Assembly (NCBI GenBank): GCA_964019335.1
Contig: OZ025679.1
Coordinates: forward strand, 310,001 to 374,000
Source: Diplonema japonicum
Taxonomy: Eukaryota > Protista > Euglenozoa: Diplonemea
Direction of reading: 5' to 3'
DNA: 64,000 nt
Made by a program: the position numbers and the translations under genes. Within the stretch, counting starts at the first letter, position 1, and each line of letters starts with the position of its first letter. The notes under the pieces were generated by a model that saw nothing but the letters and a program-made list of their open reading frames with translations, searched no databases and was not told the origin of the DNA. Shown here in pieces: positions 8,449-61,754 of the stretch.

Positions 8449-8489
8449 CGGCCGGTGAGCGCAAAAACGCATACCTTAACAAGAATAGT
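8449..8489 (+). repeat. ~40-bp dispersed motif (also 44022-44061; diverged at 2910-2944)
   Basis: cggccggtgagcgcaaaaacgcataccttaacaagaatagt recurs with two differences. Confidence 0.8.
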
Positions 8490-8562
8490 TTTTTTTTTTT
8501 TATCCCCCTCTCTTTTTCTTCCTTCCCCTCTTAAGTAGAATTATGACAGCAAAGAAAAAAAA

Positions 8563-14619: not shown

Positions 14620-14657
<38 letters not shown>

Positions 14658-14750
14658 ATGCACTAAACAGACACTCCTTTCCCCAATTTCCTTTTTTTTT
14701 TTTTTTTTTTCTCTCTTCTTTTTTTACACATAACAACGAGCGAGAAAAAA

Positions 14751-15658: not shown

Positions 15659-15746
15659 TTTTCTTTTTTTTTTTTTTTTTTTTTCCTTCAAAAAAAAAAA
15701 AAAAAAAAAAAAAAGTAAAGGTTGGGAGTGGGGTGTAGGTGCGCAC

Positions 15747-16312: not shown

Positions 16313-17350
16313 TGAATAAAAGGAAGGAAAAAATTTCATAAAATAGAAAATTGAGGGGGGGGGGGGGGGGAGGGAGGGATAAATAGAACTAGAAAGTTTT
16401 TCGAAAGAGAAAAGAAAAGAAAAAAAGGGGAGACAAAGGTTTAAACATTTTAAAACCCTTCTTAAAACCCACCCAGTTAGAGCGCCGCTTTTTTTTTTTT
16501 TTTTTTTTTTTTTTTGTTGGCATGTAAAACTCGTTTCCATCCGTTTTTTATTTTATTTTTTTTTTTAATGCGGAAACGTTTCCACGTTTTTTTTTTTTTT
16601 TGTCTAACAATTTGACAAAATAGACAACTATTCGTTGGCTTTCGGTTTGCGCACAAACAAAACGCCAGGACAGTTTCTAGTTTCACTTTCGCAGGGCAAA
16701 AAAAAAAAAAAAAAAAAAAAAAAAAGAAACTCTAAGCATAAAGTGCAAGCACATGGTTGTAGTTGTGAGTTGTAGAATTTGAAGTTTTTTCTTTTTCTTT
16801 TTTTTTCTTGTTGTCCTTTTCCAGAGTCAAACAACAAATTACAATGATCCAATCTGCGCAGCACACTGGCACTGAGCGGAAGATTTTCTCTGTTCTTTTA
16901 AAGTTTTTTTCTTTCCCTTCTTTTTTTTAAATTCCTTGGGTAAGGCAAGTTGTGAAAAATATCCGCCAAGTAGAGGCGATGGAAGGTTCAAAAAAGAAAA
17001 AAAACCTAAGAATAAAAAGAAAGAAAAAAAAAAAAGAAAAAAAAAAGAAGAAAAAAACCGTTTTTTTAGAAGAAAAGAAATCTGCAATGAAGGGGGGGTC
17101 GCTTTGCTAACAAAACTTCTCTCCTCTCCCCTCCTTCATAGCGAAATTTCTTCTTTTTTTTTTGTGGTTTACTTTCTCAGTCTTCTGTCCTTATTCTTTC
17201 GTTTTCCATTTTTTTTCTTGTCTCATGCTTTATGTTGCTTACTATCATGGAAAAATCTCACACCCTTGCATTTTTTTTTTTTTCCCCGCCCAATTTATAC
17301 CCTGTCACAAGGAGAGGAGGAGGAGGAAACAAAACCAAAAAAAAAAAAAA

Positions 17351-20300: not shown

Positions 20301-20481
20301 GAAGGCACAGGTAGTCAATATGATAAAGTCGCGAAACGAGTGGAACGTCACCCTCGCCATCGGCGATGGTGCCAACGATGTTGCCATGATTCAGCAAGCG
20401 CACATCGGGATTGGGATCAAGGGTCTTGAAGGGGGGCAGGCTGCAGCGCAGTCTGATTATGCCATCGGGCAGTTTAGGTGT

Positions 20482-20514
<33 letters not shown>

Positions 20515-21658
20515 CCGGCGACAAATTAAAAAAAAAAAAAAATTGCAGATTCCTTCACCGTCTCCTCTTCGTCCACGGCCGGTGGAACTACCGCCGACTG
20601 GCGCTGTTCTACTGTTATTTCTTCTACAAGAACGCTGTGCTCAGCTTTTCCCTGTTTTTCTACAATTTTTTGAACGGGTTTTCCGGGCAGCCGCTGTACG
20701 ACATGTGGGTATGCTCCCTGCAAAAAAAGAAAAAAAACAACCCACAGGTTGTCGCCGGATTCAACGTTTCATGGGCAGCCCTCCCTGTCATCACCGTGGC
20801 CATCATCGACAGGGACATCGTCAACACCAACAACTTACACAATTTCCCGCTGTTGTATAAACACGTATGACCCAACAAAACAAAACCAAAAAAAAAAAAG
20901 AAAAAAAAAAACAGGGCCGGATGAACCACGACTACACCTCAAGAAGAATGGCTCAATGGTATATGAACGCTGTTTTCCATGCAATTCTATGCGTGTATAT
21001 ACCAGTGGTAGCGACACTCGAGGCTAATATACTGGACAAGGACGGAAGGGACTACGGCTTGTTCCATCTGGGTGTCCTTGTGTACACAAACGTAGTGCTA
21101 TGTGTCACCCTGAAACTTGCTCTGCACGTCAGCTCGTGGACATGGCTGCACCATATATTCTTTTGGTGCTCGTTTGCAACATGGCCGATATTCTTGGTTC
21201 TGTACGGCGCTGTGTTCTTCTCTTACGGTACTATGAATGGTGAGCTAGAAGATTCAGCGTCTTGGGCCATGTTCTGGATGATACTCATTACTACTATGTA
21301 CGCCTGTCTCACAAGAGACTTTGTCTGGCGTTATATTTCGTACAGAGTAATGCCATTGCTGCCCCCGTCTGAGCTTGAGACGCTGATCCAAGGCAGGGTC
21401 AATGAACCGGGCTTCCGTAGTTCCTGTACTGTGAGGCCCATGACGCTTCTTAAGATAGTTAGGCTGCTTGACTCTGCGAAGGATGGTTCTTCTTGGGAAA
21501 AACCTGTTGAGCTGCAAGATGTTCATGAACCGTTTAACGAGGATACCGTTGAGGCAAAGAAACGGATGAAGGACGAGGCTCGGTTCGGAACATTTATCGG
21601 AGATTGTGGTATTTCCCCAAAGAGAAACCCCAATGTTCAAAAGAAGGTGAAGGAATAA
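17351..21658 (+). CDS. P4-type phospholipid-transporting ATPase (flippase); introns 19994-20040, 20191-20241, 20478-20548, 20709-20747, 20865-20914
   Basis: [33 protein letters not shown]; [17 protein letters not shown] is restored across an intron. Confidence 0.96.
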
Positions 21659-23753: not shown

Positions 23754-24399
23754 GGAGGGAAAGAGAATGTGTATAAAAAAAAAAAAGAAAAAAAAAAAAA
23801 AACGAAAAAAAAAAAAGTGTTCAAATGGTTTTTTTTTTTTTTTTTTTTCTTTGCAAGAATGAGCTTAGTCTACAAAGGGAATGTTTCTACCTTGGCACAT
23901 ATAAACTACAACAGATCCCATGTTTTCCCTCTTTTTTTTTTTGCTAAGATTTCTGTGGCCTGAAGCGGAGAGGGAAAATAAAGAAAATAAAAAATAAAAA
24001 ACATGGGTTATTTTTTAAACTTTTTTTTCTCCTCCCCCCTCCCCCCATTGTAATGTAATATTCATACCATGTCTAAGAACTGGTTTTTAAACTTTTTTAT
24101 TTCGGAATTTTCCCTTCCCCCCTATTTTTTCAAAGAAAAATAGAAGTGAAGAATGGACTTTGAAGGACTAAAAAAAGGGAGGAAGAAGGGGAAAGAAGGA
24201 AGTACAATTTTTTTTTCTTCTCTTTTCTTTTCACCTTATTCCCCCTGTTGTCCCCTTCCCTCTTTCTCTGTTGCCCTTAAAAGATTTATGCTCCCCATAA
24301 AAATAAAAATAAAAAGAAGAAAAAAAAAAAAAAAAACTGTCAAAAAGATAATTTTCCCCATTTTCTACTCTTTAAGTATACTAAAAAAAAAAAAAGAAA

Positions 24400-24741
24400 A
24401 TAGCTATTTTATTGCCAACAAATTATGAGTCATGTTTAACTCGAGTTCCCGAACGATAACGAGTGTTAAATAATGGCTCATTTGGCGGTTATTTCACTCT
24501 TCGGGTCAGCTTTTTTGGGATTTCCCTGAGGTAATACGGGGTGGCTATTTCCGTGGCATTTTAAGGGGTTAAGAGCCGGAATGGCCTCAGATTGCCAAAA
24601 AGAAATAGTAATAACCCCTCAGATTTTTCAAGGTGTTGGGGTACATTTTCCTTCCATGACTTACCTCTTTAGTTAAATAGTGTTTCCCGTTAAATTATGA
24701 GGCCCCATAGTGAGTGAAGAAAAATGACGAAGAGTGAAAAT
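24400..24741 (-). mobile_element. Short divergent Helentron/HINE-like element
   Basis: Ends match the 54.9/60.6 kb copies (atagctatt..tgccaacaa; gaagagtgaaa); asymmetric IR ttatttcactcttcg (24489) / cgaagagtgaaaataa (24728); terminal hairpin 24425-24481. Confidence 0.75.
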
Positions 24742-34898: not shown

Positions 34899-36427
34899 AG
34901 AATTTAAAAAAAATCCCCCCCCACAGACAAGAACCCCGCACTATCCGTTCCATTCTGTTCAGATCAGGGATAGGTTCCTTCAGTGCAATTCCCGTGGCGC
35001 AGGATATAGGTGAATCGGATACCTCATCAGAGTGGGATTGATCTGGTTTTTTTCCCTTTCTTTTTTTTTTTTTTTCCCTTTTTTTTTATTTTCTTATAAA
35101 GGGCAGCAAGCTTTTGGCCTCCAGCTCAAGTCCAAGGTGGGTAACGACACCTCCCTCAGGCGAGTTGCTTCCTCATGTTGTAGTGACCCGACAAGAGTAT
35201 GAGAGGTGTTCCCACTGGGTCCTGGTGTTGGCCGGCTTGGAGCCATTGCACTCCCCAAAAGTACTCGTGATCTCGTCACCCTGACATGAGATCTTTTTTA
35301 AAATATCGGGCCAGGGTTGCTGCGAAGGGGCTGGCAACACACACCTTTTCCATGTCTCGCCTTTCTTAAGAACCCGTTTCACCGTTTTTAGAGGAGTCAC
35401 CACGGAGTTTGCCGACAGCCAAGCAAGGGACAGGCTAGCACTGCCCCTGAGGTAACTGGAGGGGCGGTTTGTTATTTATTCTAATTTCCATCTGAGCACG
35501 GTTAAAAGTTATTCTTTTTTCTTTCGGGATTAAAAAATCATGTAAAAAAAAGGGGGGGGGGAAGAAAAGAAAGTAAGAAAAGAAAAGGGAGGGGGGAGAA
35601 GGGAAACTGTATCCTATATATTGTGTTGCCATAAGTTCCTACATACTATTGTTTATTTTCTTTTTTTTTTTGCTATTGAGAAAACCAAGAACCTCCCCCC
35701 CCTCCCGTTTCTTAAAAAAGGCGGAAATATAGTGTGGATGGCGTACTTTGGGTACTTATAAGGCCGAAAAAAAAATGAAAATAATAGTGTCAAAAAAAAG
35801 AAGAAGAAAAATACTCCGAGCGTTCGCCCACCTCCGGTCCCTTTCCCCTCCCCCCCTTTTTTTATTTGGGTCTGGCGGGATATTCCCCCAGAAGCCCCCC
35901 GAAATATCTGATATTACATATGCTTACGCACCTCTATAGACCGTCATTCTAAGTCTGGAAAGATTCCAAAGGGTACAGAAGAAAAAAAAGAGCGTTTTGT
36001 GGCGCATCAGAGCGATTCAGTTCCTGTTGCTTTTGACGGTCTATTGAGATAAGAAGCGTTTTTGTAAACAGCGGAGTGTAGCACCTTCAGTCCACACTTT
36101 GAGTTTCTCCTTTCTTTTCTTTTTTTTTTTTGTAAAGCTGATGAGCGCGCTTTAATTTTTATTTGAAAAGGAGAAAAAAAAAAGAATTCAACAAAATATT
36201 TTTTATCTACATTAAAATTCTTATTGGCTGGAAGGAAAGGCTTCTTTTTATAGACATGTGATAGGCTAGTTGCCCTTTTTTTTCCCTCCATCACTCGACC
36301 CATATCCCCCATTTTTATTTCTCCTCCCCCCCCCCCCCCCTGGAATCAGTGTTCCGTTACTACCACAGGTTACACTCGAAGGAAGACAAAAAGTATTTAA
36401 GAAAAAAGAAAAGAAATACATCAATCG

Positions 36428-37903
36428 ATGAATGACAGAAGTCCCAAGAAGGCTGCAGTGCAGTACCTGTCGGAACACCGAATCCCTGCTGTGATGGAAC
36501 ACCTGGTAGCTGAGCTGGTGCAGACGAGGCCCGGAGAGGATGCCCTGTTCAGGACGATGGAGAGAATCTTGAAAAAGACTTGTACCACACGGTACAAGGA
36601 TTGGAGGACACGTGTGGAGTCGATGAAGGAGGGGGGCTTTGAGGAAGGGCTCTCCTTCACCGTCCCCGAGAAGCCTGGGAGGTCTGGGTCAGAGCTGCTC
36701 CCTGGTGGCATGGAGAGGCCTGTGAAGAAGGAGGACTGCGAGGAGTTCATCCGCCTTGTGGGGGAAGCACAGGCTTGCTGCGTCAACGAGGCACTTCTGG
36801 ACGGGACCTTCACACTCCCTGCGAATGACATCGCGGAAGGCAAGCTGATGTCGCTGGGCTACATCAGGAACTCGCTGAACATCATGATCGTCACCCAGCA
36901 CACACAACAGCAATGGGACAGTTTCGGTCTGGTCTGGGCAGCCCCCAAACAAGGCCGATGGGAGGGCCTCATCACGAACGGTTTGACGAAACGTGTTGCC
37001 TTCACAGACAAGCTGAAGTTCTTGTTGGAATCCAAGTCAGCCATCGATATCGAAGAGGCGCGCATTCTGGAGGAAATCGTCCGCTCTGAGGGGATGGAGC
37101 CTGCTACAGAGATCTCTCCAAACCACAAAAGTTCTCAAAACCAGCTTAATAGAATGATGTCAGGGAATGATTTGAAAACCCTCCGCAACAAGACGGACAT
37201 TACGAAAGAAGAATGGGAGGCCTACAACATCACGTGGTCTGCCCCGCCAGTGGCGATGGTTCAGAAGAAATGCGGGGAGGCGAAGCCTGTGGCCTATCGT
37301 GAGAGGATGTCGTATTTTGCAGCATGCGATGAGTACACGATGCAGGGCGGGAATGTTACAATTGACCTGGTCAGGAGGTTCTCTCCAACCCATTTCGCGA
37401 AGGACCTGTTTTCACCGAACTCTCTTGAGGAAGGGTCAAATGAGGGTGAGGGCAACGAGTCAGGTGTACCATCTTCCATTCCAACGGCTAGACCTTCGCT
37501 GTGGCAAGAGCACTTGGACACATACAGGCAAGAGTTCGAACCTATTATAGAAGCACTTGAAGAGGTTGACTACGACAGTGAAGAGTGGGAGGAGATGGAG
37601 GTTCGTTGGTGTGTCTACATGAATGGGGAGAAGATGGACCTCATTCCGAAGGGAGCTGTGACCCCTGTTAAGCTAACCGACAAGGCCATCTACTGTGACA
37701 TTGCTAGGAAGACGTTGAACCGCACACGCCCCGCTCCAACGCAGATCACCATCCCGCCGAACACCACCGAAGCAACATGGGAGGACCTCAACATAACATG
37801 GTGCGCAATCTCCGATGGCGTCATCACCGATATCATCCCCAACGGCAGGTGTATCCCGGTTCACTTTTCGATGAGAGATTTTTACCTCGAATCCCAATAT
37901 TGA
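36428..37903 (+). CDS. RIIa/DPY-30-like docking domain plus five HECT-small-subdomain-like repeats, copy 1
   Basis: 491-aa intronless ORF; YLSEHRIPAVMEHLVAELVQTRP; repeats such as LSFTV...ELLPGGMERPVKKEDCEEFIRLV. Confidence 0.8.
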   Translation: MNDRSPKKAAVQYLSEHRIPAVMEHLVAELVQTRPGEDALFRTMERILKKTCTTRYKDWRTRVESMKEGGFEEGLSFTVPEKPGRSGSELLPGGMERPVKKEDCEEFIRLVGEAQACCVNEALLDGTFTLPANDIAEGKLMSLGYIRNSLNIMIVTQHTQQQWDSFGLVWAAPKQGRWEGLITNGLTKRVAFTDKLKFLLESKSAIDIEEARILEEIVRSEGMEPATEISPNHKSSQNQLNRMMSGNDLKTLRNKTDITKEEWEAYNITWSAPPVAMVQKKCGEAKPVAYRERMSYFAACDEYTMQGGNVTIDLVRRFSPTHFAKDLFSPNSLEEGSNEGEGNESGVPSSIPTARPSLWQEHLDTYRQEFEPIIEALEEVDYDSEEWEEMEVRWCVYMNGEKMDLIPKGAVTPVKLTDKAIYCDIARKTLNRTRPAPTQITIPPNTTEATWEDLNITWCAISDGVITDIIPNGRCIPVHFSMRDFYLESQY

Positions 37904-38226
37904 GTGGAGGGGGGGGGGGAGTTTTCTTCTTATCTTGTCTTCTTTCAAAAAAAAAGGAGTCCCGGGTGTTTTTTCTTGTTTTTTGATGAAAGGGCAGTAC
38001 CTCCCTTTTTTTTTAAAGAACATTTTTGTTCTCTCTGTTTCCACAGATAGCTTTTTTTTTTTTTTCTCTCTTGTTTCTCGTACTTTTTGTGAGGGGACGC
38101 CTCGTGGATGTCATTATTTTTTCTAAAACTGTTAGTTAGGTTAGCTTCCTTGGTTATTGCCGTTTGAGGAATTGCCGCGCTCACAGTGATATCGAATCTC
38201 TCTCTTTTTCTTTTTTGTTTTTTAGG

Positions 38227-38776
38227 AGGTGGTGGGGATAACATGGAAATATAAGAAGTACATCAGATGTGTTGTTCGCTGTTGACCTCCTCGTCGGTCA
38301 TCACCGGTAGCGCCCGAGTGGAAGAACGTAACGCAGATGCTCAGGGTGACGAACAGGCAGCAAACTGCACGAGCGCAGAATCTTGGTTACCCGGGACGCC
38401 CCGGCTAGGGTTGAGCACACCGCACGCATTAAGGACACGACGCGGAACGCAAAAGAAGCTACAACTCGGCCGGGGAGCGCCCCCTGTAATCAAGTAGGTA
38501 GTTCGTGCTTCATTGCACGCTTAACGCCACCTAGTGTTGCAATCAAAGCCCCATTTTTTTTTTTTTTTTTTTTTTTTTCAAGGTGGTGGGGATAACTTGG
38601 AAATATAAGAAGTACAGATGTGTTGTTCGTTGTTGACCCCCACGTCGGTCATCACCGGGGTGACGAACAGGCAGCAAACTGCACGAGCGCAAAATCTTGG
38701 TTACCCGGGACGCCCCGGCTAGGTTGAGTTGCACACCGCACGCTTAATGCCCCTTAGTGTCACAATCAAAGCCCCA
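38227..38776. repeat. Two direct copies of a non-coding repeat (38227-38553, 38581-38776), possibly retroposon-like
   Basis: Shared aggtggtggggataac...caatcaaagcccca; copy 2 has two internal deletions; T-runs on the flanks. Confidence 0.85.
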
Positions 38777-38790
38777 TTTTTCTTTTTTCG

Positions 38791-38832
38791 GCGGGCCGTT
38801 GCTAACCACTTCGTTCCTATCATAGTGAATTT
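38791..38832. repeat. 42-bp exact repeat, also at 43967-44008
   Basis: gcgggccgttgctaaccacttcgttcctatcatagtgaattt lies downstream of both duplicate genes. Confidence 0.9.
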
Positions 38833-39347
38833 CTTTTTTCCTGACTGTGCACAAACAAAAACAGTTTACCTGTCCGAACATAAGCCTCCTGGGGCTGTGT
38901 CTTACCGTCGTGCGAGAAGGCACACACGTCCGGCTGTGCACAAACAACAATCAACCGACTCCCTTTTTTTTTTTTTTTTTGCGGGGAACAAAAAACTGAT
39001 ATTCTTTATCTTTAAATTAATATATGCAACTAATGCTGAGCAAAAAGAACTTTTACAGCTTTTTGAAAAAGAAAGATCTCATTTGCCCCCGGCAAGACAT
39101 ATAGACATAAAGGAAAAGATTCTCCCTTTTTTTGTAATGTTCAGGGTTTACTGCTTCAATCCTTTTTTTCTTTCCCTTCTTTTTCTTTTGGTTTTGTAAC
39201 ATGTAGTACTTATCTCATGGTTTGTTCGCATGACTCAAATGATAATATGGTAAAAGGTTTGTGCTGATTTTTTTTTCGAACAAGGGGGGGGGGGGGGGGG
39301 AGAATACCAAGCTTATTCATCATACCATTTTTTTAAAGTTGAAATTA

Positions 39348-39749: not shown

Positions 39750-40073
39750 TATTTTCTTGCAAGAACGAGTCTTTGACTTGTCTAAACAAAAGGGGAACGT
39801 TGGCAACGTGTTTCGGGTTGACAAACTTGGTAATTGAAGCGCAAATAAAAAGGGAAACTCTAGTTCTACACCAAAAAGCTAAACTCTTCTTTTTTTTTTC
39901 CCCTCCCTCCCTTTTTTTTTTTTTTTTTTTTAGCAGGGCGCCGCCAACACCGGCCTCCTTTAACTCATATATATTCTTTTTTTTTTTTTAAAGTCATCAC
40001 AAGATTCATAGACTGGGGGCCTTTTCTCTGCCCTGTCTGCATCGAGTTCTTTGATGATGTACTTTAGTTCTTT

Positions 40074-40790
40074 CTAGCTCGTGGACGCACACGTAGCAAA
40101 TACACCCTCCGGTGTGCTCCTGAGCTCATATGCACCTGTAAAATCCGGAAACTCAAGAATTTTCTTTTTGTACGGGCCAAAGACATCAGTAACTACATGC
40201 ATGGCGCACCGTATCGTATTGGTGATGTTACCTATTTGTTCCACAGTTTTAATTGTTGTGGAACGAGGCACCCAAAACCAAAAAACACGAGAGAGCACAC
40301 CAAAGTGGCTGTCCCTGTTGTTTTTGCCGTGTTTCTCCCCCAGAAACCACAGGGAAAACGTCCGATCGGGATATACATAACGAAGACCAAAAAGAACAAA
40401 GTAGCAAAATTCCTTTGCACGAAAGTGACGCCCACCGTCAGTCCAGAGTATCCACTCCATTTTTTTCTTTATTTTTTTCTGTGCCCATGCTACTGTGGAA
40501 CAAGACTTTTCCAACAGTAAGGCCAGCTGCCCTTATTTCATCATGTGTGATGTGGTCAAGCCTCATGCCTCTGACCAATTGGCGCCGTGTGGTGTCTTGT
40601 TGGCTACTATATCAACCAGAAAATGATAGCAGAAGTGCCTCTAGAAGTTCCCCTTTACACACTACGCCACAAACTAGTGCAGCACAGTCGTTGCCACTGA
40701 GCTTCTCAAAAACCTCTGTGGCGAGTGTCCTGATCACCGTGGTGTTCCCATTTACCCTTTCTCGGTCCGAATACCATTTTTTTTACCCCT
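40074..40790 (-). pseudogene. Degenerate DDD/E transposase fragment, Sola2-like
   Basis: WTDGGRHFR ... FLGEKHGKNNRDSHFG in ORF 40074-40514; upstream DHITHD motif lies in another frame with a stop; the only plausible protein relic on the minus strand. Confidence 0.65.
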
Positions 40791-41051
40791 AGCTTCTCAA
40801 CAGCAAGTTTAAAAGCATCCATTTTTGTCACCCCCTCTTTTACTGAATTTGTGCAAAGTGAAAAAACCCATTTTTGCCCCTAGGACTGAATTTTCTGGGT
40901 ACCAGTAACACTCACTTTCCCATTTTCTGGGGTGTTTTCTTTCCTAATCTGGGCCGGGAAAGTTGTAGGATTTTTTTTTTTGGGAAAAAGTACTTAGAGA
41001 AATATTGAAAGTGTCAATTGGCCTCATTTTGGGGGTTTTGAAACGATGCCA

Positions 41052-41099
<48 letters not shown>

Positions 41100-41331: not shown

Positions 41332-41756
41332 GGGGGGGGGAGTCATAAGGGGGTCGTTATTTGCCCTTTTTCAGGCTCTTCGCCAAGGGCATTTTGGGCC
41401 CTTAAGAAAACTGTAACCACCCCAAAAGTGCCCACAAATCACCCAAACCCCCGTTTCCCGATGTTTTCCGGCCCCAGAATCATGTTCTAATTTTGGGACC
41501 CCCGTTTGGTACTTTCCCTATGTAATCCTAGGGACATAAAATAGGGGCCCCTAGGATTACATAGGGAAAGTACCAAACGGGGGCCCCAAAATTAGAACAT
41601 GATTCTGGGGCCGGAAAACATCGGGAAACGGGGGTTTGAGTGATTTGTGGGCACTTTTGGGGTGGTTACAGTTTTTTTAAGGGCCCAAAATGCCCTTGGC
41701 GAAGAGCCTGAAAAAGGGCAAAAAGTGGCCCTTTTTAAGGACCATATGACCCCCCC
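41332..41756. mobile_element. Foldback palindrome, ~174-bp near-perfect arms (41360-41533 / 41549-41722), 15-nt spacer
   Basis: Direct reverse-complement match with about three mismatches; outer G-run-gtcata / tatgac-C-run ends. Confidence 0.9.
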
Positions 41757-41758
41757 TA

Positions 41759-42125
41759 GGGCTACGTTGTCGGCGTACGCGTACGCAGCAAAATCTGAAA
41801 AAGTGCGTACGGCGTACGGCTGTGCGTACGGCTCCTTACAGGTATAGGGCTTACGTTGGAGACGCATGTACGTTTCCGCAATGAAATTGGCAATGTATCC
41901 CATAGTCTGGCTCTGTCCTGTGGTGTTGCGGTTCTCGAAGTACCACGCGTTGTCAACTGTGCAGATAACGGCGTTTAGCACGTTCTGCTGGGTGAATCCT
42001 TGAAGCCGTCAAATGTCATTGTTAGCCCATACGCCCATTTCTGATGCAGATCTTGCATCATCGCGGTGTTGTCCGAAGCGTTTGCTTCAAAAAGTGCGTA
42101 CGGCCGTACGCCGACAACGTAGCCC
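41759..42125. mobile_element. MITE with perfect 21-bp GGGCTACGTT TIRs
   Basis: gggctacgttgtcggcgtacg / cgtacgccgacaacgtagccc, TA on both flanks, internal cgtacg repeats. Confidence 0.88.
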
Positions 42126-42346
42126 TAGGGGGGGGGGGGAAGAAAAGGAAAAAAGAATCCAATATTGCTAAACCAACATTGCATGTTTGTTGTTGTCCCC
42201 CCCCCCTTTTTTTTTCCCCCGTCTTTTTCAACTTCTTCCTCTCGAGTATCTTATTGTTTACCTCATCCCGATTTGGTCCCATAACACCGAACAACCAGGG
42301 GTTTCAGGATCTGAACGGGAGAAAAAAAGGGGGGAAATAATATCGA

Positions 42347-43822
42347 ATGAATGACATAAGCCCCAAGAAGGCTGCAGTGCAGTACCTGTCGGAACACCGA
42401 ATCCCTGCTGTGATGGAACACCTGGTAGCTGAGCTGGTGCAGACGAGGCCCGGAGAGGATGCCCTGTTCAGGACGATGGAGAGAATCTTGAAAAAGACTT
42501 GTACCACACGGTACAAGGATTGGAGGACACGTGTGGAGTCGATGAAGGAGGGGGGCTTTGAGGAAGGGCTCTCCTTCACCGTCCCCGAGAAGCCTGGGAG
42601 GTCTGGGTCAGAGCTGCTCCCTGGTGGCATGGAGAGGCCTGTGAAGAAGGAGGACTGCGAGGAGTTCATCCGCCTTGTGGGGGAAGCACAGGCTTGCTGC
42701 GTCAACGAGGCACTTCTGGACGGGACCTTCACACTCCCTGCGAATGACATCGCGGAAGGCAAGCTGATGTCGCTGGGCTACATCAGGAACTCGCTGAACA
42801 TCATGATCGTCACCCAGCACACACAACAGCAATGGGACAGTTTCGGTCTGGTCTGGGCAGCCCCCAAACAAGGCCGATGGGAGGGCCTCATCACGAACGG
42901 TTTGACGAAACGTGTTGCCTTCACAGACAAGCTGAAGTTCTTGTTGGAATCCAAGTCAGCCATCGATATCGAAGAGGCGCGCATTCTGGAGGAAATCGTC
43001 CGCTCTGAGGGGATGGAGCCTGCTACAGAGATCTCTCCAAACCACAAAAGTTCTCAAAACCAGCTTAATAGAATGATGTCAGGGAATGATTTGAAAACCC
43101 TCCGCAACAAGACGGACATTACGAAAGAAGAATGGGAGGCCTACAACATCACGTGGTCTGCCCCGCCAGTGGCGATGGTTCAGAAGAAATGCGGGGAGGC
43201 GAAGCCTGTGGCCTATCGTGAGAGGATGTCGTATTTTGCAGCATGCGATGAGTACACGATGCAGGGCGGGAATGTTACAATTGACCTGGTCAGGAGGTTC
43301 TCTCCAACCCATTTCGCGAAGGACCTGTTTTCACCGAACTCTCTTGAGGAAGGGTCAAATGAGGGTGAGGGCAACGAGTCAGGTGTACCATCTTCCATTC
43401 CAACGGCTAGACCTTCGCTGTGGCAAGAGCACTTGGACACATACAGGCAAGAGTTCGAACCTATTATAGAAGCACTTGAAGAGGTTGACTACGACAGTGA
43501 AGAGTGGGAGGAGATGGAGGTTCGTTGGTGTGTCTACATGAATGGGGAGAAGATGGACCTCATTCCGAAGGGAGCTGTGACCCCTGTTAAGCTAACCGAC
43601 AAGGCCATCTACTGTGACATTGCTAGGAAGACGTTGAACCGCACACGCCCCGCTCCAACGCAGATCACCATCCCGCCGAACACCACCGAAGCAACATGGG
43701 AGGACCTCAACATAACATGGTGCGCAATCTCCGATGGCGTCATCACCGATATCATCCCCAACGGCAGGTGTATCCCGGTTCACTTTTCGATGAGAGATTT
43801 TTACCTCGAATCCCAATATTGA
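42347..43822 (+). CDS. RIIa/DPY-30-like docking domain plus five HECT-small-subdomain-like repeats, copy 2
   Basis: Protein identical to 36428-37903 except R4I. Confidence 0.8.
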   Translation: MNDISPKKAAVQYLSEHRIPAVMEHLVAELVQTRPGEDALFRTMERILKKTCTTRYKDWRTRVESMKEGGFEEGLSFTVPEKPGRSGSELLPGGMERPVKKEDCEEFIRLVGEAQACCVNEALLDGTFTLPANDIAEGKLMSLGYIRNSLNIMIVTQHTQQQWDSFGLVWAAPKQGRWEGLITNGLTKRVAFTDKLKFLLESKSAIDIEEARILEEIVRSEGMEPATEISPNHKSSQNQLNRMMSGNDLKTLRNKTDITKEEWEAYNITWSAPPVAMVQKKCGEAKPVAYRERMSYFAACDEYTMQGGNVTIDLVRRFSPTHFAKDLFSPNSLEEGSNEGEGNESGVPSSIPTARPSLWQEHLDTYRQEFEPIIEALEEVDYDSEEWEEMEVRWCVYMNGEKMDLIPKGAVTPVKLTDKAIYCDIARKTLNRTRPAPTQITIPPNTTEATWEDLNITWCAISDGVITDIIPNGRCIPVHFSMRDFYLESQY

Positions 43823-45034
43823 GTGGAGGGGGGGGTTTTTCTTTTTGCTTTTCTTCCGATTCGTCAGCTTTAACTTTCGTTTTTGCCAAAACTAATTGTA
43901 CTCTCTTTATTTATTTTTTTTTTTTCCCGAAAAATTGCACAAACTGCTTTTTTTTTTTTTTTTTTTGCGGGCCGTTGCTAACCACTTCGTTCCTATCATA
44001 GTGAATTTTTTTTGGAAAGCGCGGCCGGTGAGCTCAAAAACGCATACCTTAAAAGAATAGTTTTTTGGGGACCAATGTTTCCAACCTCCCTGTGGTGGTT
44101 CCTGGTAATTGTGGTTTGGAGAAACACAAGCGAAAGGGAAACTCTCGTTCTAAAGCCGTACACGTGGGGAAACCTGGACGGGGGTGGAGAGCCCACCCTA
44201 CGCGTGGCGCCAGTTAGCATCGCCCTCAACGGAGAGTCCCTTATCCCATTACATCGGACAAGGAGGTGGCTTCAACAGGTCAGGCAAGTAGCCTCCCCGC
44301 GGCATCGTGCCAGTGAAGCAAGCCTCCCACAACTCTCCAGTTGGTGTTTAATTGCTTCTGTGGCCCCTCTCCCTATTTCAATTTCCAAGCTTTCTTTATC
44401 TCTCCACTTTTACTTTCTACGGGACCACAGGGGACGTGGGAGGCTTCGGGGCGAAGTTTCACAAGGGTGGCCGCTGTGTCACATACTGCATGGCACCACT
44501 AAAATCGAGACAACTTATTTTTCTTTGCTTTTTTTCCAAATAACAAGTTGGTTAAAAATGATAATAAACTTGCGTTAATTGTGCCGAGTAACAATTTACC
44601 TCTGCAGGGTTTTTGCCTTTTGCTGCCCCCCCCCCCCCCCCCCCCCTTACTCGAGCGATACTAAAACGGCGGGTTTTCCCTATTATTATTTTTATATACT
44701 TCGCAAGCAACAATGACGCTCTCCTCTCTGTTTCCTTACTTCCTTTATCAAACTCCGTCATTTCCCTTTTTTTGCTATTCTCTACTGTCATATACAAAAC
44801 AAAAAAAAAGAAGAAAAATCCTCCCAAAAAAAAAAAGAAGAAGATTCCACCCGAAAAGGATTCTTCCGTGTTCCTGCAGGAAGAATACCCGCAAACCCGG
44901 GTTTTGCGGATCTTTCTTTTGTCACTTACACAAACCACCCTCCCCCCAATGACAAGTGGCGGAAATAATTTTTTTTTTTTTTAAATCGTTTTACAGCTAT
45001 TTCCTCCAGGATCTCAAGTCCCCCCTGCAAGAAC

Positions 45035-54502: not shown

Positions 54503-54856
54503 CCGGGGGTAAAAGAAAATGTAGTCTTTGAGAAAAGACTTCTGCATCTTTCCCTTTTGGTTTACGTGCATCAGTTCTACAAACGGAAACAACGAAAATA
54601 AAAAGAAAAAGGACTCCCCCCTATCCCGTCAGTCACTTGACACTTGTGTAGTGTAGAGGCCCCCTTCTATTCCCTTTTTTTCTTTTTTTGTTTTTTGTTT
54701 TTTTTCCCTCTCGGGTGACGAGGCGCAGAGAACTGGGACCATTGCAGGAAGCTGACGGCTAAGCTTTGTCGGCATAAAGAAAACGCGCGCTCAACATAGA
54801 AAACTGCCCACCCACGGTATTGGTCTCATTACTTTGACCGTTTTTTTTTTTTTTTT

Positions 54857-55597
54857 ATTTCACTCTTCAGAAATTACTTCACGCACTGGGGGGCCCATTA
54901 CTTCACGCTAAATCTCATTACTTCACGGTGAAATAATGGCCTGTTTTCCGTGAAGTAATAGGGGGTTTCCGTTAAATAATATGCCTCGGTAGGCCAATTT
55001 TTGCCTCGGTTCGGTTCCCAGTGGGGCTACTTTTTCCTCTCAATTTGCTATTTCCCCCCAGGTTCAGCTCAATTGGCCAACTTTTGCCTCGGCTCAGTTC
55101 CAAGTTGGACTACTTTTTCCTCCCAATTTGTCCACTTTTGGCTAGGCCTTGTTCCCAGTTTCTGTGGGTAACTCTTCTGTGGGTAAGGGTAACTTAGTCA
55201 GCTTACCCAAGCACCCCAAAAGACTTCAAAATACCGAAGCAGCAGAAAAAAAAGAGCCAGCGGCCGCGCCAGGTATGGGAAGGCTTGATTAGAGATGGTG
55301 ACAGTGGCAATGCCAGCGACAGCGGCAGCTCTTAGTCAACAAAAGGAGGAAAAACAACTTGTATTGTAACCTTTGTAACCCCTCTCTTGTTGTACCCCTT
55401 GTCACCCTGTTGTGCCCCTCGTGGTGAAGTAATTTCAGAGTGTCGTGAAATAAAACCACTTACCTACCGCCAAGTAATGACTTTACCGACCTCTCGGTTC
55501 CGCATTTTACCATCTCGGGCCCTGCGGGCCCTCGACGGTAAAATGCGGAACCTCGAGGTAACGGTAAAGTCATTACTTGTTGGCAGTAAATAGCTAT
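54857..55597 (+). mobile_element. Helentron/HINE-like non-autonomous element, copy A (741 bp)
   Basis: Sits in T-runs with no TSD; terminal and subterminal asymmetric IRs; 18-bp hairpin stem 55471-55488/55562-55579; near-identical inverted copy at 60632-61311. Confidence 0.85.
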
Positions 55598-55891
55598 TTT
55601 TTTATTCACACCCAAAAATGAATTTTTTTTTTTTATTTCGAGTTGACATAATTCAAAAGAATACATTGTGGATAAAAAAAGAAATACAAAAAAAAAAAAA
55701 GAATACCCCCCCCCCCATACCCCCCCCATTTTTTATTCTTCTTCCCCCCTCATACCACTTTGTCTTTCTTTTTTATCTTTTTTTATTTTAAAAGTTTCGT
55801 TGTTTGATCTCTCTCCCCCCTCCCCCTTTTTTTTTTATCCGCTTCTCACAAAAATTCAAGCAGAAGTGGGAAGGGAGGGAAAAAAGGGGAA

Positions 55892-56964
55892 ATGGGTAAA
55901 GATGAAAAGAAAAAGCAGATGTTAGACATGCTCAAAAAAGAAATTGAGGCGGTATCGGATCGGTGGAGGGTAACGGCGTACCTAAGCGGTGGATCATACG
56001 GTGAAGTTTGTGGGGCTATTGACACAGTGACGGGGCAGAAGGTGGCGATCAAGAGGGTGTACAAGGCGAAGGCGGCAGAAGGGGAAGTTGTCATTCTCGA
56101 CGACCCATTCCTCTCGAAAAGGGTGTACCGAGAGATAAAGCTCCTGTCCCACTTCAACCATGAGAATATACTGGGCTTGATTTCGGTAATGGTGGACCCC
56201 GAGCCACCAGAACCGCTCTCGAAGCTATTCATGGTTATGGAGTGCATGGACACCGATCTGTCTCAAATCATCCGCGACCCTACAGTCAATGTGACACCGG
56301 AGCACATCCAGTATTTTATGTTCCAGATTTTCCACGGGCTGAAATGTCTGCATGATGCGAAGGTGATACATAGGTGTTTTTTTTTTGGGGGGGGAAAAAA
56401 AAAGAGAAAAAAAAAAGAAAAAAAAACACAGAGATCTTCACCCTGGCAATATCCTTCTTAACACGGAAAACGACATAAAAATCTGTGATTTCAACCTTGC
56501 AAAGGCGGACACTGGAAGCAGCCAGGCATCGACGGACTACGTGACATATCGATGGTATCGTGCTCCTGAGCTTGTCATGCAATGGAAGAAGTACGACAGA
56601 AAAATTGATATTTGGTCCGCCGGCTGCATCATGGTGGAGTTGTTTAACAGAAAACCGCTCTTCCCAGGCACCACTTTTTACAACCAGCTGAACAAGATTA
56701 TCGAGATCCTTGGGACGCCCTCTGAGGCGGATGTGGAGCATATCGGGTCGGACTCTGCAAAGCAATACCTTTTCAGGGAGCTGACGGGCATCCCATCTGC
56801 AAAATGGGAGCGAATCGTGAAGACGAAGAACCGACATGCCATAGACTTGGTGAGCAAGCTGCTTGTCTTCAGCCCTGTGAAGAGGCTAAATGTTGAACAG
56901 GCACTTCGACATGATTTCTTCAAATACCCGAACTGCCTTTATGATGAGGAGGAAATGGTATTTG

Positions 56965-57002
<38 letters not shown>

Positions 57003-57367
57003 AGCAATCCATTCCCGCCGTGGAGCACTTCAGCTTCGATGAGGCGCTCAAGACGTCAGAGCAAATCAAGTCCTCTCTGTCAGGGTACATCACGCAGATT
57101 CAAAGGCGGTTCAAGCAGGAGGAAGACTACTGTCGCACTTCGCCGCCTTCTGTCCCGCTTGACCCAACACTGACAGGGTCCACTGTGAGCAGGGGCAAAC
57201 CACCGGTGTCGAATAATTCCATGTGTGGGGACGCCAACAAGTACCTTGCTCGGACAAATAGCGATTACATCATTGAAGAGATCAATCAAAGGATGTGCGA
57301 TGTATGGAGGAAAAAAAAAAGAAAAAAAAAAAAAAAAAACTAGGACGAGGCAGAAGCAGCCGAGTAA
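55892..57367 (+). CDS. MPK10: MAP kinase, orthologue of kinetoplastid MPK10; introns 56374-56431, 56958-57004, 57302-57343
   Basis: GSYG, VAIKRV, HRDLHPGN, CDFNLA, TDYVTYRWYRAPELVMQ, GTTFYNQLNKI; HRDLHP and DFN match Leishmania MPK10 as recalled. Confidence 0.9.
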
Positions 57368-57476
57368 GATTTTAATAGAAAACAGGGGGCAGGGAGGGGT
57401 GGGTGGGGGTGAGGGAGAGAAAGTGTAGGGATAGAGAGAGAGAGTGTTTTTTTTTTTTTTTTTTATTTTCATATAT

Positions 57477-58538
57477 GAGCTCGTCCGGAAAAAAATGTCA
57501 ACAAATGACCCTCCTATGCGGCGTAAAACCCCCGCTAAATTTCTAAGTAAAAAAGTAGTCCGACACCACTTTGTGTGCAGAAATGCAGTCTAAGCTTGAA
57601 CACCATATGGGTCAAAATGCTCGCCGTTTGTTTTATTTTTAAAACGCACGTGCAAAAACATGTTTTTTATTTTATTCTTTCTTTTATTTTTTTGAATGGT
57701 TTTTGGCAAACGATTCAATTTGGAAGTTGCAAATAACCCAGACTCCATTTTTTATTCTCGTTTTTCCGTGAAAAGCGACAGGAGGAATAGACGCAGATTG
57801 AAAATCTGTGAAACCTTTGGGGTCATTTTGGGTGGGCTGGACTCTAAATCACTATTAAAATGGGGTGGGTGAACTTACCCTTAAAGTGCCATTTTGGCCT
57901 ATTTAAGGCTAAAAATCCCTTTAAAACCCCTTAAAAAAGCAAAATTTTCACCTTTAAAGTATTATGAGTGCTAAAGGTGGTAAAATAAAAGGAAAACCCT
58001 CAGCAGATGGGTAGAGAATGAAAGTTTGACCCCAAAGATACCGATGTCAAAGCTCTGCATGAGCAGGCAAGTGTTAAGAATTGGTTTTTCTGAAAAAGGC
58101 CAAAATCCCTTTGGAACCCCTTGAAAAAGCCAAAAAATAGGGTGTAAAAAACCGGATTTTCGGGGGCTATGCGGCGCCATATATTTTTCGCTAAGTACTT
58201 TTAACAGTAACCCGACCCTGGGTTGTACCCAGGGTCACAAGTGCGCTTGAACACCAATTTTATGCACCCTAGATGCTGCATTTTAAGCAGAAAAATTGCA
58301 TTTTAAACATTTTCCGCCGGTTTTCTGACCTCTATTTTTCGCTTCCCGGAGGCAGCCGGTTGCAACGCCTGCCGCCCTCATGGCAAAACAAGCATCGCAA
58401 TTGAAAGAACGGCGTCATGTACACCATGTATGTCATCTTCCTATGGTTGCATGCTGCCTTTTTTTTGCGCAAATAATCAAAACAAGAAATTTTCGAAGGT
58501 GCCCAAAAAAGTGTTGACATTTTCGTCCGGACGAGCTC
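57477..58538. mobile_element. Non-autonomous TIR element with GAG..CTC ends and ATAT target duplication (Sola-like)
   Basis: 27-bp TIRs, 25/27 identical (gagctcgtccgg.......tgtcaaca); atat on both flanks; no coding capacity. Confidence 0.85.
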
Positions 58539-58577
58539 ATATATTTATTTCGCGCATACAAAAGATTAGAAAATTGG

Positions 58578-58611
<34 letters not shown>

Positions 58612-59036
58612 TTCGAGGCACAACGAAGAGATGTGTGGTCATAGCACTTCCCCCCCTCCCCTCTTTATGTGATCCCTTCTCCGCCCCCTGAGCAACAAAG
58701 TTTTTTTTTTTTTTTAAAAAAAAGAAAACAACGAAAGTTTAAAAAAGAAAAGAAAGAAAGAAAAAAAAAAAACCTAGCTTCCCAAGGAAAGAAAGGAAAG
58801 AAAGAATTTTTTTTTACTCCATTGTACCACCTTATTCTCGTTTTCCGTCCCAAAATGACGCGACCTTCATTTTTTTTTTCTTCTCTCTTTTTTTTTCTCC
58901 TCCATCTTGCTTAGGGCAAGGGGAGGAGAAGAAAACCTTGGTCCCCTTCCCCCTGCCCTTACAACTCCATCTCGTTGAATCTGGCCTTTTTTTTTTTTTT
59001 TTCAGGATGGACCAAGTGGGGATCGCCTTTTTTTCG

Positions 59037-59068
<32 letters not shown>

Positions 59069-60421
59069 GTTGGCAACATATATTTTCTCCGGGACGTAGT
59101 TCGAACAACAGCTAGTTCCTCTTTGCAGAGAGGTCCCTTCGTCTGTCCAGAGCAGCTATGTGCATTTTTCTCCTTTTTCGTCGATTTTTTTTTTTTTTTT
59201 AGATGATAAAGTCATTTCTTTTTTTGTGGCATCCCCAAAAAAGGAAGGTCAAAGGGCAAAGGGCGACTAGGGAGCTCCCCCCCCCCCCCCCCCCCCCCCC
59301 CCCAAACCTCTGAGTGAAAATTCCTTTGCGATTTTATTCTCTCTTTACCAGAGGGTTTTTTTTTTATTTTTTGGGTAGGGCCGGAGCGGGCCCGAGACGA
59401 CGAGAAACCCTTGTCTACTACCAAATCAGCTCCACAGGTGACACTTCCACCGCTCTTTTTTTTTTTTTTTTTTTTTTTTTTCCATATTTTTCTTCAACCC
59501 ACACTCTTCCTCGTTCTGAAGACATTTAGAAGAAAAAAAAAAGAAAAAAAGGAGAAAGAAAGACAAGTGGAGTCAAAAAAAAAAAATCCTTTCTCTTTCT
59601 TTTTTTTTTTAATTGTGTTTTTTATTTTATTTTTTTATTGTTTTCTCCCTCTACTTTCCCGGGAATATCAGTGGCCCGTTTTTTTTTTCTTTTTTTTTTG
59701 TACCTACCCTCACGAAATAAAAAGGAAGAAAAGATAGGTCTCTCTCTTTTCTTTTTTTGTTTTTATTGTTAGAGAAGCAGGGAGGCACCGGGGTGGCGTG
59801 AAATTAAAATGAAAAGACACAAGCCTTATTGAGAGAAAAGATTTTTTTTTCCTGCTCCTTTTTGCGATTAGCCTTGGGAAGAAGAAAAGAAAGAAAGTAG
59901 AGGGGGCACGGAGAGGGGGGATGGTGCAAAAGTGATGCTCGCGTGTATAAGTTTTATTTTTATTTTTTATTATTTTTGAGTACCCCCCCCCCCCCCTTAC
60001 CGGCCTGCATTCTCTCCTTTCCCATTCCAGTCCCCTTCCCCCCCTCACCTTCTTTTTTTTTGATAAGCCCCTTTAACGAGGTTGCTGCAGCGTTATGCCA
60101 ATCAAACAATTGGAAAAGAAAAAAAAAAAGAAAAAAAAAGAAAAAAGCTAACCCCCCCTGAGCTGAGGCCCACCTCTTTTCTTTTTTTTTTTTATTATAT
60201 TCTTCATATTTTATTTTTTTTAGTTTATTTTTTTTGTACCAAACACCCCGGCATTGGTTTTCTTTTCTTTTTTTTTTCTTTCTTTGAAGGCCCTCATTCC
60301 CGAGGCGTTGCTACAATACAATTACACTGACTCTCCACCTGCTACACAGCCACGGTGCCCCTTCTTCGAGATGACGGATCCACTTTCCACCTAGCTTCTT
60401 CTGACAGATGACCTCACTCTC

Positions 60422-60454
<33 letters not shown>

Positions 60455-60536
60455 ACCCCAAGAAAAAATACTAAAAAATAAACAGGGGAGGGAGAGCAGA
60501 AAAAAAAAAAAAAAAGAAAAAAAAAAGGGAAAGAAA

Positions 60537-61482
60537 ATGGCAGGAAAGGTTGTGGTGCCTCGTAACTTTAAGCTGATCGATGAGCTTGAGAAAGCAGAAA
60601 AAGATCCGACTTCAGCAGGTATGGAGCAAAAATAGCTATTTACTGCCAACAAGTAATGACTTTACCGTTACCTCGAGGTCGGTAAAGTCATTACTTGGCG
60701 GTAGGTAAGTGGTTTTATTTCACGACACTCTGAAATTACTTCACCACGAGGGGCACAACAGGGTGACAAGGGGTACAACAAGAGAGGGGTTACAAAGGTT
60801 ACAATACAAGTTGTTTTTCCTCCTTTTGTTGACTAAGAGCTGCCGCTGTCGCTGGCATTGCCACTGTCACCATCTCTAATCAAGCCTTCCCATACCTGGC
60901 GCGGCCGCTGGCTCTTTTTTTTCTGCTGCTTCGGTATTTTGAAGTCTTTTGGGGTGCTTGGGTAAGCTGACTAAGTTACCCTTACCCACAGAAGAGTTAC
61001 CCACAGAAACTGGGAACAAGGCCTAGCCAAAAGTGGACAAATTGGGAGGAAAAAGTAGTCCAACTTGGAACTGAGCCGAGGCAAAAGTTGGCCAATTGAG
61101 CTGAACCTGGGGGGAAATAGCGAATTGAGAGGAAAAAGTAGCCCCACTGGGAACCGAACCGAGGCAAAAATTGGCCTACCGAGGCATATTATTTAACGGA
61201 AACCCCCTATTACTTCACGGAAAACAGGCCATTATTTCACCGTGAAGTAATGAGATTTAGCGTGAAGTAATGGGCCCCCCAGTGCGTGAAGTAATTTCTG
61301 AAGAGTGAAATAAAAAAAATAAAAAAAAAAAGGTATCTCTCTTGGTCTTGAAGACTACAATGACATCTTTATGCATAATTGGAACGCCACCATCTTTGGG
61401 CCAATGGGCACGGCATTTGAGAACAGGATCTACAGTCTTAAGATTCACTGTGATAAGAATTACCCGAACAAGGTTTGCTTCC

Positions 61483-61513
<31 letters not shown>

Positions 61514-61754
61514 ACACATTTTACAGGCACCCATTATCTCTTTCATCACTAAGGTTAGCATGGACAGTGTAAATAGCAGGGGGCAAGTTGACATTGACAA
61601 AATTCCCGTTATGCAAAACTGGAAGTCTGACCTGAGCATGATGGATTGCCTCATGGGGATCAGACAGGTATGGATGAGAAGAAAAAAAAAATAAATACAG
61701 GAAATGGTTGGGAAGGAGCGTAAGACCCGCCAGCCGCCTGAAAGCAACTACTGA
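60537..61754 (+). CDS. UEV1: Ubiquitin-conjugating enzyme E2 variant (UEV1/MMS2); exons 60537-60618, 61333-61472, 61527-61667, 61701-61754
   Basis: VVVPRNFKLIDELEKAEK, GISLGLED, WNATIFGP, FENRIYSLKIHCDKNYP, C-terminal QPPE. Confidence 0.95.
60632..61311 (-). mobile_element. Helentron/HINE-like element, copy B (680 bp), inside UEV1 intron 1
   Basis: Reverse complement of 54857-55597 except for a 61-bp indel and one substitution seen. Confidence 0.88.

What the first reader, a model, noticed from the sequence alone, without database searches (positions are those of the whole stretch)
54857..61311. Recently active Helentron/HINE-like rolling-circle family
Seen: two near-identical inverted copies with no TSD, embedded in T/A-runs. 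One IR is terminal (ttttatttcac..gaaattacttcac) and its partner is subterminal (about 55424-55455), followed by an 18-bp hairpin and the end aatagctattt. There are internal attacttcacg iterons and ~57-bp tandem repeats. Established: asymmetric IRs, a 3' hairpin and TT insertion define Helentron-associated elements such as DINE-1. Inference: an autonomous RepHel partner should exist in this genome. I do not know of such elements being characterised in euglenozoans.
Basis: partly seen in the sequence, partly recalled or inferred. Interest (0 to 1): 0.8.

Follow-up and report, generated by a model that had tools for sequence, protein, structure and literature searches.

The report
Long-hairpin rolling-circle-type transposon in Diplonema
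Two almost identical, oppositely oriented copies of an abundant gene-less repeat in a marine flagellate have ends built like those of Helitron2/Helentron jumping genes, so they likely move by rolling-circle copying with an enzyme borrowed from a partner element that was not found, a known kind of element that my searches did not find described in this group of protists.

Summary
The element is real; its class is likely but not proven. Copy 1 (54857-55596, +) and copy 2 (60633-61311, -, in an intron of a UEV/MMS2 gene) differ by one substitution and a 61-nt loss inside the 3' hairpin. Public contigs show an abundant family with a fixed 3' end followed by T-runs (74 and 36 contigs). The host is a diplonemid.

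The layout matches non-autonomous HLE2 (Helitron2/Helentron/HINE) elements, but the 3' hairpin (57-118 nt) and the IR-to-end distance (82-143 nt) exceed published ranges. No RepHel partner, empty site or circle junction could be shown, because no genome is held. 'No TSD' therefore cannot be told from a T4-T7 or TATT duplication.

The two copies share four alleles that are rare in the family, so they are likely local sisters (local re-insertion or conversion). Modest interest.

The parts
54857..55596 (+). Copy 1 of the non-coding element (740 nt), between T16 and T7 runs
   Evidence: longest stop-to-stop frame lying wholly inside it is 85 aa, with no Pfam hit
54853..54897 (+). 5' asymmetric inverted repeat (terminal 9 bp TTATTTCAC plus perfect 13-bp core at 54870-54882)
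54873..54959 (+). ATTACTTCACG iterons (54873, 54897, 54917 forward; 54949 reverse) forming a 5' fold-back region
   Evidence: 5' 118 nt fold z -4.0
54992..55130 (+). Two 56-bp internal repeat units at an 83-bp period
55411..55455 (+). Subterminal partner of the 5' IR, ending 143 nt before the 3' end
55468..55585 (+). 118-nt compound 3' hairpin (18-bp outer stem, 5-bp, 16-bp and 6-bp inner stems)
   Evidence: z about -11
55589..55598 (+). 3' terminus AATAGCTA plus TT, forming a palindrome; fixed end of the family
   Evidence: 74 (X2) and 36 (X3) contigs run on into longer T-runs at 55603
60633..61311 (-). Copy 2 (679 nt), lacking 61 nt of the inner hairpin, inside a GT-AG intron (60619-61332) of a UEV/MMS2-like gene
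   Evidence: contigs of the same depth cover exon 1 and exon 2 in X12 and X14
24401..24741 (-). Third, diverged member (341 nt): perfect 12-bp asymmetric IR, 75-nt hairpin, same 3' end, T-runs on both sides
   Evidence: (end score 67 against a background maximum of 40 in 596 tiles)

Best explanation
This is an abundant, non-coding repeat family with an asymmetric inverted repeat and a 3' hairpin, inserted in T-runs, that is likely a non-autonomous rolling-circle transposon of the HLE2 (Helitron2/Helentron) type moved by a RepHel enzyme encoded elsewhere. Shown: the ends, the hairpins, T-run flanks, many copies, and no coding capacity. Inferred, from Helraiser and HLE2 work: RepHel binds the 5' iterons, nicks at the 5' TT and peels off one strand. 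The 5' IR then pairs with the subterminal IR, which sits 1-14 nt upstream of the hairpin, so both ends are brought together. The hairpin stops the helicase, a second nick at GCTA|TT releases a single-stranded circle, and the circle is joined into another T-run without a TSD. The 61-nt loss in copy 2 is likely replication slippage across the hairpin. The two copies are likely local sisters, by local re-insertion or by conversion between the inverted copies.
For: - The same order (5' IR / subterminal IR / hairpin / AATAGCTA / T-run) occurs in 3 of 3 members, with different interiors in member 3. The pattern GTGAAATAA-N(0-20)-CGCCAA matches 3 times against 0.02 expected.
- The hairpin base pairs in 35 of 38 cells, with one two-sided change, G-C to A-T.
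- The perfect IR cores are 13 and 12 bp, the size given for DINE-1/HINE subTIRs (PMC4067079).
- The family end is fixed after the hairpin, not at the IR: the largest loose-end group is at 55603 (74 contigs in X2, 36 in X3), followed by Ts.
- Summed contig depth over the element is about 10^2 to 10^3 times that of the neighbouring kinase gene in X2 and X3, and it is highest in the 3'-end bins in 4 of 4 runs. This fits shared ends with varied interiors.
- Internal-deletion derivatives appear.
- ORFs resembling Helitron proteins are reported in D. papillatum (PMC10161547).
Against: - No RepHel was found or linked. A motif scan of six frames of the window found no Helitron Rep motif and no Walker A match, and no genome is held.
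- The subterminal IR lies 82-143 nt from the 3' end, against 38-60 (mite HINE), 20-30 (Helitron2) and 38-51 (FoHeli).
- The hairpin spans 57-118 nt, against 5-10-bp palindromes in HINEs.
- The 5' fold is not significant in member 3 (z +0.7).
- The single two-sided change is matched by 162 of 500 shuffles (3 rows, 2 independent).
- TATT stands at both junctions of 3 of 3 members, so a 4-bp duplication or terminal direct repeat is not excluded.
- A nearby sister pair is not expected from Helraiser, which showed no local hopping (PMC4778049).
Confidence: 0.7

Rival explanations
1. The family moves with a different single-strand or recombinase enzyme (Replitron-type Rep, IS200/IS605-like Y1 transposase, or Crypton-type tyrosine recombinase). 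TATT(T) at both junctions would then be a short terminal direct repeat or target repeat.
For: TATT is present at both junctions in 3 of 3 window members. Replitrons have short terminal direct repeats, a right-end hairpin and mostly no TSD (PMC10288648). Three 11-bp iterons next to a fold-back recall Rep-binding origins (same paper).
Against: The 5' TTA pairs with the subterminal IR in families 1 and 3, so it looks like part of the IR. The Replitron passages read describe direct repeats and contain no 'inverted repeat'. One variant contig end in X12 shows only two Ts after the terminal A.
Confidence: 0.13
2. A cut-and-paste MITE: the 600-nt segment between the imperfect IRs (54855-55455) is the DDE-mobilised unit, the iterons are transposase sites, and the hairpin tail is an appendage. 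A T-rich TSD is hidden in the T-runs.
For: Subterminal iterons and local hopping are typical of DDE elements (recalled general knowledge). DDE-type elements occur in the window: a high-copy TIR element at 57471-58544 and a transposase-like ORF at 40077-40532. The pair are local sisters.
Against: The hairpin and AATAGCTA follow the IR in 3 of 3 members. The listed loose ends at the IR boundary (60715) are single contigs that continue into another hairpin-like variant with the conserved CTCGAG, not varied flanks. The main family boundary is at 55603.
Confidence: 0.1
3. A non-autonomous derivative of a DIRS/VIPER/TATE-like tyrosine-recombinase retroelement. The subterminal IR plus the left hairpin arm would act as an internal complementary splint that joins the two ends of an RNA-derived copy into a circle.
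For: The segment 55424-55488 is complementary first to the 5' end and then to the subterminal 3' arm. The family is well covered in runs that appear to be RNA (X5, X9). TATE-type proteins are reported in D. papillatum.
Against: The last 8-12 nt are not covered by the 'splint'. The repeats are short, not long split or inverted terminal repeats (DIRS anatomy recalled, not read). RNA cover is expected from introns and UTRs.
Confidence: 0.05

Closest known systems
HINE / DINE-1, non-autonomous Helentrons (PMC4067079; abstract, section 3, part 1 of 3 of section 4, sections 8 and 10 read)
   Same: Non-coding; 12-13-bp subterminal IR core; further partial IR near the 5' end; stem-loop after the 3' IR; central repeats; T-run targets with uncertain T partition; high copy number.
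   Different: 3' IR 82-143 nt from the end (38-60 in HINE-Mo); hairpin 57-118 nt rather than 5-10 bp; no microsatellite core; partner Helentron not shown; host is a diplonemid, a group not in that paper's distribution list.
Helitron2 (PMC3627910, passages) and FoHeli1/2 of Fusarium (PMC5148889, passages)
   Same: 5' ATIR at 0-2 bp from the end with a downstream fold-back; 3' ATIR immediately upstream of the 3' hairpin; insertion after T-runs; terminus reading ...ATTTT as in FoHeli1/2.
   Different: The ATIR is 20-30 (Helitron2) or 38-51 nt (FoHeli) from the 3' end, against 82-143 here; no 5' TC; the 5' hairpin is significant only in family 1.
HLE2 as defined by HELIANO (PMC11417382, passages and supplement search)
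   Same: Short TIR pair of 12-13 bp plus a right-end stem-loop; T-T insertion.
   Different: HELIANO classifies by the transposase, which is absent here. Its survey row shows Kinetoplastea 0/1 for HLE2, and the supplement has no occurrence of 'Diplonema'.
Replitrons (PMC10288648, passages)
   Same: Copy-and-paste-like abundance, right-end hairpin, possible short terminal direct repeat.
   Different: This family has an asymmetric inverted repeat and T-run targets; the candidate direct repeat is only 4-5 nt of T/A.

Membership tests
HLE2 (Helentron/HINE, Helitron2) | Asymmetric short IR: one terminal copy at 5', one subterminal at 3' | tested here: met
   3 of 3 members; perfect cores of 13 and 12 bp
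HLE2 (Helentron/HINE, Helitron2) | Stem-loop directly downstream of the 3' IR | tested here: met
   Starts 14, 14 and 1 nt after the IR; fold z -11 and -5.9; member 3 beaten or matched by 3 of 300 shuffles
HLE2 (Helentron/HINE, Helitron2) | Published sizes: 3' IR 20-60 nt from the end, short (5-10 bp in HINE) palindrome | tested here: not met
   82-143 nt from the end, hairpins of 57-118 nt
HLE2 (Helitron2, DINE-1) | 5' hairpin or partial IR next to the 5' IR | tested here: inconclusive
   Family 1 z -4.0; member 3 z +0.7
HLE2 (Helentron/HINE, Helitron2) | Insertion in TT / T-rich targets | tested here: met
   6 of 6 window junctions lie in runs of at least 4 T, while 9% of window bases are in A/T runs of 5 or more; T-run loose ends in 74 and 36 contigs
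HLE2 (Helentron/HINE, Helitron2) | No target-site duplication, shown by empty sites | tested here: inconclusive
   No non-T duplication; no empty site among the listed joints, but the tables were cut (126 and 7 rows hidden) and joints at T/A runs are dropped
HLE2 (Helentron/HINE, Helitron2) | Autonomous partner with the same ends encoding RepHel of the HLE2 clade | not testable with these tools
   No genome held; none in the window; collection scans found only chance matches
Helentron proper | AP endonuclease fused to RepHel | not testable with these tools
   No partner sequence available
Helitrons in general | Head-to-tail circle junctions | tested here: inconclusive
   None among the listed joints (15 of 141 and 15 of 22 shown); contigs drop rare forms
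Canonical Helitron (HLE1) | 5' TC, 3' CTRR, A|T insertion, no IR | tested here: not met
   The 5' end is (TT)ATTTCAC, the 3' end is GCTA|TT, and an IR is present
MITE / DDE TIR element | Symmetric TIRs at both termini | tested here: not met
   The family boundary lies 82-143 nt beyond the 3' IR
Replitron / Crypton | Short terminal direct repeats | tested here: inconclusive
   TATT at both junctions in 3 of 3 members, not separable from IR plus T-run

The most novel reading that the evidence does not exclude
The family is the passenger of a diplonemid-specific HUH/RepHel lineage outside HLE1 and HLE2, like the third clade found in Paramecium (PMC13085455). Its oversize 3' fold-back and splint-like IR would define a new terminal design, and, unlike Helraiser, it would re-insert locally, the sister pair 5 kb apart being a fresh local hop.
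Probability: 0.15. Interest if true: 0.62.

Novelty: new variant of a known kind. Interest (0 to 1): 0.3.

Why it matters
If the RepHel link holds, it extends HLE2-type rolling-circle elements to Euglenozoa. DNA transposons are absent from 57 trypanosomatid genomes (PMC12278014), and diplonemid Helitrons are known only from a one-line mention of ORFs (PMC10161547). The ends given here are ready probes for the autonomous partner in a transformable protist group. The long, length-variable hairpin is a natural test of how much terminator an HLE2 enzyme needs, and the sister pair poses the question of local hopping. None of this overturns current views: such elements are common in eukaryotes.

Tried and rejected
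- Genome-wide search: no genome is held.
- End-motif scans: viral contigs gave 0 matches. Metagenome contigs gave 1 match (L001), a 22-nt match with no other part of the element in 20 kb, rejected as chance.
- Attempt to obtain a Helentron Rep from viral contigs with the published motif II: 2 loci, both on the strand opposite a 392-aa ORF that is not a RepHel by length and sequence; rejected.
- Rfam on 54700-61500: 10 matches, all far below the gathering scores.
- Pfam on the element's longest frame and on five other frames in repeat regions: no TE domain; one weak MARVEL hit at E 0.048 was ignored.
- Earlier scan notes: none on this family by sequence, place or words.
- One search used a mis-registered structure (43% paired) and was repeated with the correct register.
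- No listed run is on record as RNA. Reading X5 and X9 as RNA is my inference from contigs that skip kinase introns.
- Summed contig depth is not a copy number, so no exact count is given.
- A composite transposon carrying the kinase gene was rejected: the copies face each other tail to tail, and nothing shows joint movement.
- An inversion between the copies was rejected: UEV exons 1 and 2 remain colinear.
- The element as an intron-maker was rejected: copy 2 lies inside an ordinary GT-AG intron.
Full report
Observation. The two copies exist as described. Copy 1 runs 54857-55596 (+) and copy 2 runs 60633-61311 (-). They differ by one substitution and by a 61-nt deletion in copy 2, bounded by ACCTC on both sides. 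The 5' 45 nt are imperfectly complementary to 55411-55455 (79% over 47 columns, perfect 13-bp core). Fourteen nt further on a hairpin starts: 118 nt in copy 1 (z about -11) and 57 nt in copy 2 (z -5.9). Both copies end in AATAGCTA followed by Ts. The iterons are real (12 window matches, 10 in the copies, 0.57 expected). The internal repeat is a 56-bp unit at an 83-bp period. The longest frame wholly inside the element is 85 aa, without a Pfam match.

A third member. BLAST of copy 1 against the window found a 30-nt match at 24399-24428. It is the 3' end of a 341-nt element (24401-24741, -) with a different interior but the same order of parts: a perfect 12-bp asymmetric IR, a 75-nt hairpin starting 1 nt after the IR, the same terminus, and T-runs on both sides. 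Its combined end score is 67 against a maximum of 40 in 596 background tiles. The IR-hairpin junction pattern occurs 3 times against 0.02 expected. The hairpin base pairs in 35 of 38 cells with one two-sided change, which is not significant on three rows (162 of 500 shuffles). Its 5' region does not fold better than shuffles.

Host and setting. The best protein match of the kinase between the copies is a Diplonema papillatum MAP kinase at 80% identity, so the host is a diplonemid, probably another species. Earlier scan notes also call this genome Diplonema. Copy 1 is intergenic. Copy 2 lies in a GT-AG intron (60619-61332) of a UEV/MMS2-like gene (exon 3 matches UEV2/MMS2 at E 2e-4). In X12 and X14 a contig of one depth (19.5 and 52.4) covers 60578 in exon 1 as well as exons 2 and 3. 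The intron is therefore likely spliced out there; whether those samples carry the insertion is unknown.

The family. No genome is held, so I laid Logan contigs of 8 of the 17 listed runs. Summed depth over the element bins is 407,000-662,000 in X2 against 424-717 over the kinase bins; 58,000-324,000 against 116-436 in X3; 5,300-21,000 against 86-114 in X5; and 760-2,900 against 17-23 in X9. The tool warns that this is no copy number. In X13 the genes are absent, but a 654-nt element contig stands at depth 25. The largest listed group of loose ends is at 55603 (74 contigs in X2, 36 in X3, 2 in X11) and continues with Ts, so the family boundary lies after the hairpin and not at the IR. The 3' bins are the deepest in 4 of 4 runs. 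Deletion derivatives and alternative hairpin interiors are present, and X13 holds the long hairpin form (records 16, 17). X14, whose kinase pieces differ at 11 of 208 and 9 of 378 letters, holds variants of the family. No empty site and no head-to-tail joint is among the listed rows, but 126 and 7 rows were hidden and joints at T/A runs are dropped.

The pair are likely local sisters. At four sites both window copies carry a letter that is rare in the family:
- 55043: the other letter has 763,134 of 764,048 depth in X2 and 39,835 of 40,020 in X3.
- 55253: 637,261 of 647,909 in X2 and all of 107,048 in X3.
- 55285: 409,901 of 410,500 in X2 and 96,329 of 97,377 in X3.
- 61037, the mirror of 55131: all depth in X2 and X3.
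The X13 contig differs from copy 2 at 7 sites, 6 of them shared by copy 1, while the copies differ from each other at one. If the window's letter at 55043 and its mirror 61125 (914 + 2,848 in X2) stood for two copies, hand arithmetic gives some 400 copies; this is an order of magnitude only. Caveats: contigs that fit both copies are split between them, contigs drop rare variants, X3 shows none of the window's letter at 55253/60915, and two further shared letters (55213, 60898) are common in the family. Local re-insertion and gene conversion between inverted neighbours both explain the pattern. Helraiser showed no local hopping (PMC4778049, passages).

Mechanism. Shown: anatomy, abundance, T-run flanks and lack of coding. 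Inferred: mobilisation in trans by a RepHel. By analogy with Helraiser and the Helitron2 model in which ATIR pairing sets the end point (PMC3627910, passages), the 5' end is nicked and one strand is displaced. The 5' IR pairs with the subterminal IR next to the hairpin base, bringing both ends within about 10-15 nt. The hairpin halts the helicase, and a circle is released and joined into a T-run. I put this at 0.7. The rivals are a direct-repeat HUH or recombinase element (0.13), a MITE with a tail (0.10) and a DIRS-like derivative (0.05).

Works like versus is. It works like HINE/DINE-1 and Helitron2: an asymmetric 12-13-bp IR core, a hairpin just downstream and TT targets (PMC4067079; PMC3627910; PMC5148889; PMC11417382). 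Membership is not established. The partner enzyme, empty sites and circles could not be shown, and two size features lie outside the published ranges. I therefore file it as a variant rather than a member.

Novelty. Searches for diplonemid + Helitron (2 papers), Helitron + Euglenozoa + rolling-circle (2), Diplonema + transposable elements + genome assembly (9) and a five-term search (12 papers, 11 listed) gave no structural description of such elements in euglenozoans. PMC10161547 (passages) says only that some ORFs resemble Helitron proteins, and its 7 supplement files had no hit for four terms. HELIANO's supplement shows Kinetoplastea 0/1 for HLE2, one euglenozoan row and no Diplonema. PMC12278014 (passages) found no DNA transposons in 57 trypanosomatids. 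Passages only were also read of PMC13085455, PMC8788227, PMC10288648 and PMC12621601; some searches were seen as listings. The library lacks most subscription papers and Repbase/Dfam entries, so prior description is not excluded. The scan holds 342 Helentron notes in at least 67 genomes, protists included, and none on this family.

Verdict. This is a genuine, young, abundant non-autonomous family with HLE2-type ends and an unusually long 3' hairpin, in a lineage where I found no description of such ends. The mobiliser is unproven. Interest 0.30.

Noticed in passing
window 57471-58544: A separate high-copy non-coding TIR element (about 1.07 kb; 33-bp TIR, 94% identical, starting ATATATGAGCTCG), probably with a TA or TATA target. 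Depth is as high as that of the main family, and internal-deletion derivatives exist.
   Followed up: partly
window 39960-41070 (ORF 40077-40532, -): A broken transposase-like frame with a DGGRHFR...HGK...DSHFG motif; no Pfam hit; ESM Atlas neighbours at 0.95-0.96 carry DUF7869 on 14-58% of members. One end reads TATATATGAG like the TIR element above, so it may be a related DDE family (DDE reading recalled, not tested).
   Followed up: partly
window 41351-41731: A near-perfect 183-bp-arm palindrome (96%, 15-nt loop), abutting a second IR-bounded element at 41750-42134 (40-bp IR, 95%).
   Followed up: no
window 36402-37942 and 42323-43856: A tandem duplication (98.8%) of a ~490-aa gene with a partial HECT match, the two copies separated by a stack of repeats.
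   Followed up: partly
window 56374-56431, 57304-57343, 61667-61699: Short GT-AG introns whose 3' tracts are poly-A rather than pyrimidine-rich; PMC12621601 reports A-rich tracts for D. japonicum.
   Followed up: no
window 55589-55598 and 24397-24410: The 3' terminus plus the following Ts forms a perfect palindrome (12 bp in family 1, 14 bp in member 3), which could mark the nick site.
   Followed up: no
window 38205-38432 / 38559-38788 and 38777-38837 / 43953-44013 / 8449-8494: Further short dispersed repeats next to T-runs, of unknown class.
   Followed up: no
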